Assembly (NCBI GenBank): GCA_951406725.2
Contig: OX597814.1
Coordinates: 113,460,001-113,524,000, forward strand
From: Octopus vulgaris
Taxonomy: Eukaryota
Reading direction: 5' to 3'
DNA: 64,000 bases
Shown here: positions 49,381 to 54,560 of the stretch, in pieces
Position numbering within the stretch: position 1 is the first letter of the stretch
How the letters are laid out: each line of letters begins with the position of its first letter
Program-made: the position numbers and the translations under genes
The notes under the pieces: model-generated
Told to the model about the DNA's origin: nothing
Seen by the model: the letters and a program-made list of their open reading frames with translations, nothing else
Databases searched by the model: none

Positions 49381-50599
49381 GAAAAATAATTGGAGATGCC
49401 TGGAAAATTATTTGATCTCTGATCAATTACTGTTACTCAGTACATATTAAACTTCAGGATTTTAAATACAATTATTTCTCATCAATCACAAGTCAGTCGT
49501 TCTAATTTTTGAAATGGGGATAATGTATATTTAACTGGATCAAAAATATACCTTGTAATTAAGATCAAAATCAGAATTAAACAACTGGAAATTATTGACA
49601 GGTACATCTCGTAAAACTTTTGAAGAGGCTTAAAGCCAAAGTAGCCTGACACAATTAGGGTAATAATATTAGGAAGAAAATCTTAATTTAAATTTACAGG
49701 GTTGGAATGTATTGTAAGGGTGACAGAACTAACTTGTTGATAATATCGGACCTAGTACACAAGTGCGATTATGTTATCTCATAACTTCCGGAGAAAAAAA
49801 AATATTTTTGAATGAAATTTTCTGCAAGTATGCTTCAGATGGTGTAGAATCGGATAATATCGGAATATGTGATGAAAAAACAAAAAATTCCGAGGGTGTT
49901 CAAAGATTGGAAAATTCACATGAAAAGACATTCTTTACACATAAGTATCAGGAAAATAGGTAATTTTTAATGAAATTTTCTATAAATACATTTCAGAGTG
50001 CATAGATTAAGATCATATCGGAATTTAATGTGAAAAAAAAAATCGGTGAATTCGTACGTACACATACATCCCGTATATCATCAAAATGAAACATGCAATT
50101 TGAAAGACAATTGCGACGTGTTCGTGCTCAATGCTTTTGTTTTCCACATCCAATTCCGATATATTCGTAATTTAGACACTGTGAAAAGTATTTGTAGAAA
50201 ATTTCATTAAAAAATACCCATTTTACTGAAAGTTATGAAACAAATCCAGCTCGTCTGAATTTTCTAAAACTCCTCTTCCCACCCACATAATTTTTTCACA
50301 ATAAATTCCAGTTAAGCCATCGTCGGGCTGCCGACGATAGCTAAGTTGACCGAAACTTCGAAGTCACTGTCAATAATCTTGCACAACAAGAGTAAATATG
50401 TATGTATGTATGTGTGTGTATATATATATATATATATATATATATATATATTTATGTATATATATATATATATATATATATATTTATGTATATATATATA
50501 TATATATATATATATAGGTCCCGGGTTGATTCGGGGTTAACCACAGTAAATAAGGTACTCAATACATAGCAGAGTAAAATTAATTTATTATATAGAAGG

Positions 50600-50650
50600 A
50601 GCTTCTACAGGACTAGAACTGTTTCATTCAAGAGAAATCTTCAGGAAGCT
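50600..50650 (-). ncRNA. Type I hammerhead ribozyme
   Basis: Reverse complement of 54445-54495. Confidence 0.85.
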
Positions 50651-53600
50651 AGTTAACAAGAATTGTATTGGCATTTATACATTTAGGCAGGTTTAAAGGG
50701 GTGTTGGTGGGGGACTTTTTGGGGGGTAGGCATAGCGCAAAATATCATACTTGGGGGAGTGGTCAAGGAGTCAGTGTTAAATTAGATAGAAGAATAAATA
50801 AAAAATAAGAATAAAAAATAAAAAATAAAAAATAAAAATATATATATATATATATATATATATATATAAAAAAAAAAAAAAAAAAGGGGGATAGAGTTTT
50901 AGGTAAATAAGGAGATTCTCACTTATACCTATGCACATATGTATACATATATACACACGCATACGAACATATACATATACATACACACATACATACACAC
51001 ACATATATATATATATACATATATATACACTTACACATACATATACATATCTACACATACACATATATGTATACATACACACACTCACATGCATACACGT
51101 ATACACACATGTATATATACACACACACGACCACACATACATATACACACAGAAAAATATATATACACATACACACACATACTCACATACACGCATACAC
51201 ACACAAATCCACACACACACATGCACACCCAGCACACTAGTCCCTATATACACATATATACACATACACACATATATATATATATACATACACACACATA
51301 CATATACATACACACACACATATATATATATATATATATATATATATATACATATATACACATACACATGTGTACCCATGCATATCTACACATACACACA
51401 TATATATATACACATACAAATACAGACCCATTCCCTAATTTTAATTTTATTATCTTCGTTTATTACTTTTGTTATCTTTGGCCGCTTGGTCACAAACATC
51501 TTGGCTATGACAGCCAGTCCATTTATCTGTCTACTGGAAAACAAGCACTCATTCACTCACGCACACTCTTTAGCACGTACACTCACTCATTCGTACACTC
51601 ATACACATACACGCACGCACGCGTTATATTCATACATACATACATCTACATACATTCACGTATATACACATACGTACGCGTACCTACAGATTCATGTCTA
51701 CACTCTTAGAAGGCTAGTCTATACATATACACCAATAAATATAAATACACACACATACACGTACACCTACATACAAATACATACATGTATATATATATAT
51801 ATATATATATATACATATATATATACTACATATTCACACATATATACACATATATACATACACACACACATATACATACACATATATACACATATACACA
51901 CATATACACATATATACACACATACACATACATACATGTACACACATACACATACATACGTATACATACATACATACATCCATACATCCATACATACATA
52001 CATTTATACACATACACACACCCACATACATACATATATATACGCGCATATATATATCCATATATATATATATATATACATATACATATATACATATATA
52101 CATATATATTCATACACACACATACACATACATACATACATATACAAATATACGCACACACATACATACATACTCATATACTCATACACACACATACACA
52201 TGTACATGCGTCCCCTTACACGCACACACACACGCGCGCGTCCATATATACACATAAGTACACCCATGCGTAAGAGTATACATATATCTATGCTTACACA
52301 TACACACACACACACGCGCCTCCTTATATTCATACTTACATGCATACTCAAAAAATAAGTAAATAGTAAAATATATATACGCGCAGTTATTCATACATGC
52401 ATACTCAAAAAATAAATAATAAATAAAAAATATTAAGTATATGTACGTGCAGTTACCTATTATATAGACGGATACATACATATAAACTTACACACATAGA
52501 TATATATATATATATATATATACATATATATACATACATACATACACATATATATACACATACACACACACATACATATATACATATATATACACACACA
52601 CACACATACACACATATATATATATATATATATATATATATATATATATACATACTTACACATGTACATATAAATACACACACAGATAACTCTACGTACC
52701 TACATATACATAAACACACGAGCGTACGCGTATATGTACATATACACATACACATACACACGCATATATATATACATACATACGTACACATACACACATG
52801 TGTATACACATACACACACATACACATATATATACACATACACATATATATACACATATATATATATATATATACATACATATATACATACATATATATA
52901 TATACACATACACATACACACATATATACATGTGTGCAAACATACATACATTCTCATACAGGCACACACACTTACATTTACATATATACACACACTTACA
53001 CACATATATACATACACATGTACATACATACATACGTATATGCATACATACACACACACACACATATATATATATATATATATATATACATACATACATA
53101 CACAAACACATACCCATACATATATATACACACATATATATACACATGCACATACTTATATCTCTACATACTCGCATATACTTACATACTATATATATAT
53201 ATATATATATATATATATATATATATATATATATATATATATACATATACATACATATACACACACACATACACATACCTATATACATGCATATATACAC
53301 ATACATATATATACACATCTACAATTTGTATCTACACTCACATACCTGCACATACACATAACTCTACATACCTACAAATACATCGACATACTCGCGTACA
53401 CTCATATATATACACATATATACATATACACACACACATACATATACATATACATATACATATATATAAACATATACACACATAATACACATACACACAC
53501 ACATACACATATATGTATATATATATATACATATATACATACATACACACACATATATATATACACACACACACACACACATACATATATATATATATAT

Positions 53601-53703
53601 ATATATATATACATATATATATACATACATACATACATACACATATACATACAAGTACATATACACATACACACACATATATATATACATACACATACAT
53701 ATA

Positions 53704-53912
53704 TCAACAATTGAGGGTAAGGTTAATTAGTTATTAATCAATTTCACCAAGTATTCAGTTGTAAAAGGACCATTATTTTTATGAGTAAACAATGTCTGAG
53801 GGAAAATATTCTCTAAGTAGTGGAAGAGGCTAAAAAACTTTATTGGCTGCTATTTCTAGAAAGTTCAGTATGCGGCAGAGTAATTTATTTTACTAAGCCC
53901 TAATTATATAAT
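53704..53912. mobile_element. Short diverged relative of the 560-bp family: two 3' termini in inverted orientation
   Basis: TCAACAATTGAGGGTAA..TTCACCAAGT..GGACCATT at left and GCTGCTATTTCTA..AGTTCAGTATGCGGCA..TACTAAGCCC..TATATAAT at right match the two outer ends of 4756-8717. Confidence 0.8.
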
Positions 53913-54283
53913 ATTTTATACATACATACACATACATACACACATACATATACACATACATATGCATACACACATATATACATATATACATACATACATC
54001 TATACATATATACACACACACACACACACGCACATACATATATATATATATATATATATATATATATACACATATATATATATTTGTTTACATACATACA
54101 CGCACACACACACATAATATATAATACATGCGTATAATCCTACTATACCCATACATTTCTATACATATATACGATACACATATACAAGCGTGCACATACA
54201 ATATGTGAAAGGTCTTAGGAGAAAAGGTAATCGGGGGTGCTAGGGGAACGGTGGGGTTGGGGGGTTTTGTGGGTGGGGTGTCA

Positions 54284-54370
54284 TCAATCTGGTTGCCGGG
54301 TAGGTCTATAGTTCTTGTAGTTCGCATACTTTTTATGCATACAATTTGGGGAGTGTTCTGAGATTTTGTT
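54284..54370 (-). pseudogene. Last 28 codons of a putative PLE ORF (NKISEHSPNCMHKKYANYKNYRPTRQPD*)
   Basis: Resembles the (L)NKxSE..C.HK C-terminal motif of some PLE GIY-YIG endonucleases; starts exactly at the inversion junction. Confidence 0.5.
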
Positions 54371-54444
54371 CCCCAAAAAGTCCCCCACCAACACCCCTTT
54401 AAACCTGCCTAAATGTATAAATGCCAATACAATTCTTGTTAACT

Positions 54445-54495
54445 AGCTTCCTGAAGATTTCTCTTGAATGAAACAGTTCTAGTCCTGTAGAAGCT
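54445..54495 (+). ncRNA. Type I hammerhead ribozyme
   Basis: AGCTTC-CTGAAGA-TTTC tctt GAAT-GAAA-CAG ttctagtc CTG-TA|GAAGCT: 6-bp stem I, intact core, stem III, GUA cleavage after 54489. Confidence 0.85.
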
Positions 54496-54560
54496 CCTTC
54501 TATATAATAAATATATATATATATATATATATATATATATATATATATATATATATATAT

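What the first reader, a model, noticed from the sequence alone, without database searches (positions are those of the whole stretch)
50517..54512. A Penelope-like retroelement whose ~3.5-kb 3' UTR is mosaic microsatellite: simple-sequence DNA as retrotransposed cargo
Seen: identical 142-bp inverted repeats (50583-50724, 54371-54512), each with a canonical HHR, enclose 3646 bp of what looks like ordinary CA/TA microsatellite. That interior has unique anchors (~50885-50935, 51420-51560, 54205-54370) and recurring motifs (ATAACTCTAC.TACCTACA at ~52687 and ~53358; TATTCATAC..ATGCATACTCAAAAAATAA at ~52327 and ~52388). Exactly at the inversion junction the minus strand reads NKISEHSPNCMHKK...*, like a PLE endonuclease C-terminus (recalled from Hydra-clade PLEs, which I recall prefer (TA)n). 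Inference: identical IRs imply a young insertion, so much of the degenerate microsatellite probably arrived as part of the element. A share of this genome's simple-sequence mass may be spread by retrotransposition rather than by slippage.
Basis: partly seen in the sequence, partly recalled or inferred. Interest (0 to 1): 0.85.

Follow-up and report, generated by a model that had tools for sequence, protein, structure and literature searches.

The report
Retrotransposon carrying microsatellite in its tail
This is a young, front-truncated copy of a Penelope-type jumping gene whose copied RNA runs on from the end of its protein into simple CA/TA repeat DNA, so at least some of what looks like ordinary microsatellite is moved around the genome by the element; whether the whole 3.5-kb stretch travels that way is likely but unproven.

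Summary
Observation confirmed: 142-bp arms are 100% identical, each holds a type I hammerhead, only the left has a 66-nt tail, and a 28-codon ORF end starts exactly at the inversion junction. Its N-K-x-S-E-x4-C-x-H ending fits the Hydra-clade endonuclease alignment of Craig et al. 2021. Public contigs (4 of 4 runs laid) show that other copies continue upstream in frame, run from the stop codon into the same mosaic microsatellite (54129-54200), and carry the same sequence inside the left pLTR. So both ends of the interior are family sequence, and two solo pLTRs around host DNA is unlikely. Best reading: one 5'-truncated insertion of an undescribed Hydra-type family with an unusually long, microsatellite-rich 3' UTR (stop to ribozyme 3.64 kb, against about 150 nt in a published Hydra). 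Microsatellites riding in Penelope elements is already reported in shrimp; the genome-wide share is unmeasured.

The parts
50400..50516 (.). (TA)n target tract, left flank
   Evidence: no target-site duplication can be read inside it
50517..50582 (-). 66-nt tail at the element's 3' end, present on this side only
   Evidence: the second copy ends at the same base
50583..50724 (-). 3' pLTR (part duplicated in the inverted arm)
   Evidence: 142/142 identical to the right arm
50600..50650 (-). type I hammerhead motif, stems I 6 bp, II 3 bp, III 4 bp; predicted cut after 50606
   Evidence: activity not tested
50725..50934 (-). 3' UTR just upstream of the pLTR, C- and T-rich on the sense strand; its first ~20 nt are family sequence
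   Evidence: loose ends before 54371 in all 4 runs (67 contigs in X1, 43 in X2, 2 in X9, 3 in X18) resemble this stretch
50935..53699 (-). mosaic CA/TA microsatellite of one polarity with old internal duplications; copy number not tested
   Evidence: 505 CA against 41 TG in 50848-53699
51414..51592 (.). unique non-repetitive anchor of unknown origin
   Evidence: no second match in the window; 0 look-alikes in the scan index
53705..53912 (.). nested mini-insertion of a second hammerhead family (tail piece plus inverted pLTR end)
   Evidence: 80% and 86-90% identical to the array at 4756-8713, the two pieces in opposite orientation
53918..54200 (-). mosaic microsatellite directly behind the post-stop UTR; 54129-54200 is shared by other copies, with a hint out to 53947
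   Evidence: tables 2, 7, 8
54201..54283 (-). C-rich start of the 3' UTR, family sequence
54284..54370 (-). last 28 codons and stop of the ORF, Hydra-type endonuclease C-terminus, cut at the 5' truncation point
54371..54512 (+). inverted pLTR without tail, with hammerhead at 54445-54495
54511..54560 (.). (TA)25 target tract, right flank
55751..55922 (+). second, tiny insertion of the same family: 65-bp inverted arm, then pLTR end and tail, in (TA)n
   Evidence: 95% identical to the main copy; its own two arms are 43/43 identical and share a base that differs from the main copy

Best explanation
One recent retrotransposition event of a Hydra-type Penelope-like element, read on the minus strand. 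The endonuclease nicked a (TA)n tract; reverse transcription started at the tail, copied the pLTR, about 3.56 kb of 3' UTR made mostly of mosaic (TG/TA) microsatellite, and the last 28 codons of the ORF, then stopped; a second, tail-less pLTR copy from the same template was joined in inverted orientation. The degenerate microsatellite, its unique anchors and probably the nested second-family fragment were already in the donor and came in as cargo. Shown: architecture, ORF end, and that other copies carry the ORF end followed by the same mosaic and the same pre-pLTR sequence. Inferred: nicking and priming steps (from PLE literature), that the middle 3 kb was in the donor RNA, and that the donor is typical of the family.
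For: Tail on one side only and inverted arm starting at the pLTR/tail boundary, repeated in a second copy whose arms match each other but not the main copy; this is the layout described for PLEs. Contigs X9 record 27 (438 nt) and X18 record 10 (693 nt) cover 54169/54173-54370 and go on 235 and 494 nt into sequence absent from this locus; the 30 letters shown are the same in both runs and read in frame without a stop as E-I-L-F-A-K-G-P-L-L (hand translation table 7). Those contigs overlap by 30 nt with contigs reaching 54129 in the mosaic, and X2 record 17 bridges 54142-54221. Summed contig depth over the mosaic (about 1.15e5 in X1, 1.19e5 in X2) is of the same order as over the ORF end (1.5e5, 1.7e5) (not a copy number). 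No joint from the post-stop UTR straight to a pLTR was listed (table 5). A 31-nt loose end in X18 has its best match in 128 kb of both strands at 53947-53975, 2 edits, the only site at 2 or fewer. The interior holds duplications 23% diverged and a 179-nt unique anchor, which slippage could not make after an insertion with 0/142 arm differences.
Against: No data cover 50760-53900 in other copies; the tool skipped 54070-54128 and contigs are short. No listed contig bridges this copy's own inversion junction (32 of 9891 pieces shown). The nested fragment at 53705-53912 has the layout of a locus-level insertion and could postdate the event. A test for shared motif vocabulary between the family-wide mosaic and the rest of the interior was inconclusive (10 interior tiles against 51 others, p = 0.084). 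All 27 Hydra consensus lengths listed are 1080-3045 bp. No RT or full endonuclease was recovered.
Confidence: 0.68

Rival explanations
1. One insertion of a family whose UTR holds only a short mosaic microsatellite (a few hundred bases); the extra ~3 kb is private to this locus, gained afterwards by slippage, nested insertions or conversion from a host tract, or picked up once by a template switch.
For: Only 54129-54200 (hint to 53947) and about 20 nt next to the pLTR are shown to be shared. A nested second-family piece sits inside. Long mosaic tracts are common here: 18 tracts of 500 bp or more in the window, two others over 2 kb.
Against: Arms differ at 0 of 142 and the ORF-end region differs from the majority allele at about 2-3 of 200 sites (tables 3, 4), too little time for 23% diverged duplications or a 179-nt unique anchor to form in place; the whole interior keeps one polarity.
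Confidence: 0.2
2. Two separate family copies in the same orientation, a 3' stub on the left and an inverted-arm copy on the right that lost its own 3' end, enclose older host microsatellite.
For: Identity of arms alone does not exclude it: multiplying the window-allele shares at the 7 pLTR variant sites of X1 gives about 0.28 (hand calculation table 3, sites treated as independent). The family inserts densely here (second copy 1.2 kb away).
Against: Needs a missing 3' pLTR and tail for the right copy and a missing inverted arm for the left; the neighbouring independent copy is only 95% identical while arms within each insertion are identical. The simple form, two solo pLTRs, is excluded because both inner ends are family sequence.
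Confidence: 0.08
3. Assembly artefact: repeats mis-joined or polished to identity across a microsatellite.
For: Low-complexity region; no listed contig spans the junction at 54370/54371.
Against: The ends fall exactly where PLE biology puts them and the same layout recurs in three other places in the window (55751-55922, 4756-8713, 53705-53912).
Confidence: 0.04

Closest known systems
[quoted passage not shown] 2021, PMC8557442), including Hydra-1_Obim of Octopus bimaculoides
   Same: C-terminal L-N-(K/S)-x-x-E-x4-C-x-H ending, hammerhead of the ctga(a/t)gat...tgaa form near the 3' end, (TA)n insertion, inverted 5'-truncated copy.
   Different: Stop to hammerhead is 3.64 kb here against about 146 nt in Hydra-2_Amil (counted by hand); the conserved R after LNK is I here; hammerhead and C-terminus differ from Hydra-1_Obim; short probes of this family found no related hit in that supplement (line breaks can hide hits); tail is 66 nt against the 30-40 bp reported.
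SSR-carrying Penelope copies of Litopenaeus vannamei (Yuan et al. 2021, PMC7878876)
   Same: Recently transposed Penelope copies over 98% identical whose internal SSRs are syntenic, read as SSRs moving with the element (passages).
   Different: Clade not stated in the passages seen; no kilobase-long degenerate mosaic UTR described there in what I read.
Poseidon PAc of Anolis (Frangieh et al. 2024, PMC11167929)
   Same: AT-rich nicking and internal RT start sites that explain the tail; the model used for the mechanism here.
   Different: Different PLE clade; the steps that make the inverted arm are not worked out there.
Non-LTR retrozymes (bioRxiv 10.64898/2026.07.22.740005)
   Same: Type I hammerhead related to PLE pLTRs.
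   Different: Retrozymes are tandem and non-coding; this element has an ORF end and no tandem unit. The array at 4756-8713 fits them better.

Membership tests
Penelope-like elements | pLTR with inverted 5'-truncated copy flanking the unit | tested here: met
   feature as described
Penelope-like elements | tail extension at one end only | tested here: met
   66 nt at 50517-50582, same end point in the second copy; longer than the 30-40 bp reported
Penelope-like elements | hammerhead motif in the pLTR | tested here: met
   descriptor match with stems I-III; Rfam gathering gave 0 hits; cleavage untested
Penelope-like elements | single ORF with telomerase-like RT and GIY-YIG endonuclease | tested here: inconclusive
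   only 28 codons in the window and 10 more in other copies; no hit
Hydra clade | C-x-H motif after the conserved N at the endonuclease C-terminus | tested here: met
   N-K-I-S-E-x4-C-M-H has the spacing of the 5 Hydra rows visible (one row garbled); comparison by eye
Hydra clade | insertion into (TA)n | tested here: met
   2 of 2 copies in the window; shared with Naiads, so not diagnostic
Hydra clade | RWK, DKT, CxCx5C linker, CxxC, absence of CCHH | not testable with these tools
   ORF is truncated; upstream contig letters beyond 30 were not shown
Hydra clade | RT phylogeny | not testable with these tools
   no RT sequence obtained
Hydra clade | generally short, under 3 kb (descriptive, not diagnostic) | tested here: not met
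   this truncated copy alone spans 3854 bp from ORF end to tail (50517-54370); whether that is typical of the family is untested
Non-LTR retrozyme | tandem hammerhead units without coding sequence | tested here: not met
   no tandem unit; ORF end present
TIR DNA transposon or MITE | inverted repeats at both termini with target-site duplication | tested here: not met
   left arm lies 66 nt inside the end; family sequence continues inward asymmetrically

The most novel reading that the evidence does not exclude
A high-copy Hydra-type family, present under three organism labels, has a family-wide 3' UTR of about 3.5 kb made of mosaic microsatellite with 11 perfect (TA)n runs of 19 bp or more. Each jump would plant new target sites for itself and for other (TA)n-seeking PLEs, a self-feeding loop that builds a measurable part (percent range) of the host's simple-sequence DNA by reverse transcription, hidden from annotation because repeat maskers label it simple repeat and cut the consensus.
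Probability: 0.3. Interest if true: 0.75.

Novelty: new variant of a known kind. Interest (0 to 1): 0.5.

Why it matters
If the long UTR is typical, kilobase tracts annotated as simple repeat in this genome are transposon sequence, PLE coverage and ages are mis-estimated, and microsatellite density has a retrotransposition term that can be measured from anchor counts. It would also show a PLE reverse transcriptase copying over 3.5 kb of dinucleotide mosaic, and give a concrete case of an element that carries its own target sequence. If only the short mosaic is shared, it is an ordinary new Hydra family.

Tried and rejected
No genome is held for this window, so the genome-wide anchor test could not be run. 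Rfam: 0 matches. Protein searches with the short frame: 2 candidates, none at E 10 or less; 0 proteins at E 0.001 in 1.84 billion representatives; Pfam 0 families; ESM Atlas best 0.76, no lead; all are weak for 28-52 residues. A 30-nt hammerhead pattern had 0 matches in metagenome and viral contigs. Earlier findings: 4 answered look-ups, nothing returned. No RNA holder listed on record; X9 is only guessed to be RNA, so expression is not addressed. Uncovered 54070-54128 was skipped by the tool as repeat and is no finding. Motif-vocabulary tests were inconclusive: p = 0.084, and one other tract had more private 8-mers per kb (10.4) than the interior (4.0). The inverted-repeat finder was swamped by microsatellite pairs. 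MITE, retrozyme and two-solo-pLTR readings were rejected as in the membership table. One 13-mer probe hit in the Craig supplement lies in unrelated sequence and is taken as chance.

Full report
Observation. The arms at 50583-50724 and 54371-54512 are exactly 142 bp and identical. Each holds a type I hammerhead motif, sense on the minus strand at left and on the plus strand at right; stems I and III also appear in the unconstrained fold. Rfam found nothing at gathering level, so the ribozyme call rests on core and pairing. A 66-nt extension (50517-50582) follows the left arm only. Both ends sit in (TA)n. The 3646-bp interior is 66% mosaic microsatellite of a single polarity. A 28-codon frame starts at the first base inside the right arm.

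Family layout. A second copy at 55751-55922 shows the same plan in 172 bp: an inverted arm starting at the pLTR/tail boundary, then a truncated pLTR end with tail. It is 95% identical to the main copy, yet its own arms are 43/43 identical, including a base at which it differs from the main copy. So each insertion carries two arms copied from one template. Craig et al. describe this layout, an inverted 5'-truncated copy plus a one-sided tail, as typical of PLEs (PMC8557442; I saw abstract, outline, passages, section 11, supplement parts 2 and 58 and term searches).

Clade. Hydra endonucleases end in L-N-(K/S)-R-x-E-x4-C-x-H in the rows visible; the window reads N-K-I-S-E-x4-C-M-H with the same spacing (by eye). 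Hydra hammerheads mostly have the ctga(a/t)gat...gaa form seen here, and almost all insert in (TA)n. Hydra-1_Obim is a different family (other hammerhead, other C-terminus). No RT was recovered, so membership rests on short motifs. The host looks like an octopus to me, from the repeat landscape and a T-box-like exon start at about 31416; that is recalled and was not tested.

Other copies. The stretch 54180-54512 is held at half or more of 32 sampled words by 20 of 24 listed runs, from 9 studies and 3 organism labels, including runs of only 36-97 million letters. I laid 4 of these 24 runs on 54070-54510 (all contigs). 8145, 1587, 22 and 73 contigs were laid. In X9 and X18 (two studies, two organism labels) a contig covers 54169/54173-54370 and continues 235 and 494 nt into sequence that is not the inverted arm, so these come from other copies; the 30 letters shown are identical and read in frame as E-I-L-F-A-K-G-P-L-L (hand translation), which puts L-L before the N-K as in several Hydra rows. 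These contigs overlap neighbours that reach 54129 in the mosaic, and X2 record 17 bridges 54142-54221. Loose ends before 54147 in X1 and X2 follow the window's mosaic to about 54124 with small changes. One X18 loose end matches 53947-53975 best in the whole window (2 edits; next best 3 edits at 61954), hinting at a copy that lacks about 200 bp but shares mosaic further in. Loose ends before 54371 in all four runs resemble 50725 onward. No joint from the post-stop UTR to a pLTR was listed, but contigs are short and 50 loose ends and 9859 pieces were not shown. Summed depth over mosaic and ORF end is of one order, and 7-14 times higher over the pLTR, as expected for heavy 5' truncation; the tool states that this is no copy number.

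What this settles. Both ends of the interior are family sequence, and the family 3' UTR does begin with mosaic microsatellite. The middle 3 kb is untested. It looks old: duplications at 77% identity, a 179-nt unique anchor, and a nested fragment at 53705-53912 that is 80-90% like a second hammerhead family arrayed at 4756-8713 and has its own inverted-arm-plus-tail layout. Old contents inside arms with 0/142 differences favour cargo that was already in the donor. Against: arm identity only bounds divergence below about 2%, young identical pLTRs are common in this family, the nested piece could be later, and a vocabulary test was inconclusive.

Mechanism. By analogy with PAc (PMC11167929, parts 1-2 of 4 read), the endonuclease nicks AT-rich DNA and RT starts inside the RNA at one of two sites, which makes the tail. 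Here synthesis ran through 3.56 kb of UTR and stopped 28 codons into the ORF; the junction with the inverted arm shows no microhomology against the upstream letters, whereas the small copy overlaps by 3 nt. How the inverted arm forms is inferred, not shown.

Scale. In this window 1 of 18 mosaic tracts of 500 bp or more lies inside this family, about 2.4 of 17.5 kb of mosaic, in a window chosen for it. The O. vulgaris annotation lists PLEs at 6.83% of the genome in 190 families, and 329 recent near-full-length Penelope insertions averaging 5.5 kb by my division (PMC13282606; part 1 of 3, passages and a supplement search): compatible with long families but no test, and the host link is unproven.

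Prior art. SSRs moving inside recent Penelope copies are reported in shrimp (PMC7878876, passages); retrotransposons as sources of microsatellites are reviewed in PMC3812793 (passages). PMC3124438 (passages) lists Penelope consensus up to 7.6 kb in P. monodon without the point at issue. The retrozyme preprint was read in part 1 of 5. Six searches showed no paper on a Hydra or octopus PLE with a kilobase microsatellite UTR; subscription papers, Repbase, Dfam and bioRxiv supplements were not visible and may hold this family.

Verdict. Real, a Hydra-type PLE insertion with about 0.9 confidence; whole interior as cargo of this event 0.68; family-typical 3.5-kb UTR about 0.5; sizeable genome-wide share about 0.3. 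New variant of a known kind; interest 0.5.

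Noticed in passing
window 4756-8713: Six tandem 560-bp units, about 99% identical, each with a hammerhead-like motif on the minus strand, followed by an inverted 545-bp copy with the motif on plus (8380) ending in (TA)n: a young retrozyme-like or non-autonomous PLE array.
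   Followed up: partly
window 53705-53912: A diverged mini-insertion of that same 560-bp family sits inside the finding's microsatellite.
   Followed up: partly
window 1190-1375, 10340-10515, 54560-54720, partial 44828-44895: A third short dispersed element of about 170 bp between (TA)n tracts, with a minimal hammerhead-like motif (intact core at about 1255); one copy directly abuts the finding's right flank.
   Followed up: partly
window 2537-3043 (+): 168-aa frame with a Cys-rich linker and IYC...YIG motif resembling the Neptune rows of the alignment; Pfam gave no family.
   Followed up: partly
window 54445-54446 in runs X1, X2, X18: Loose ends (24 contigs in X1) and one joint 54506 to 54445 suggest recurrent fold-back junctions at the small palindrome in hammerhead stem I; other loose ends at 54426-54427 point to a pLTR subfamily with a different segment.
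   Followed up: no
window 31389-32390 (+): 333-codon frame with Q/H/T runs whose start looks like the first exon of a T-box gene (recalled); Pfam gave no family.
   Followed up: no
window 62115-63187 and 11443-11743: A 331-bp inverted pair at 98.8% and a 300-bp near-palindrome at 95%; possibly more inverted PLE-type or MITE insertions.
   Followed up: no
window about 21400-21775, 29322-29708, 40365-40747, 63360-63680: A dispersed SINE-like repeat appears to carry an internal CA/TA microsatellite between conserved halves: a second possible carrier of simple sequence.
   Followed up: no
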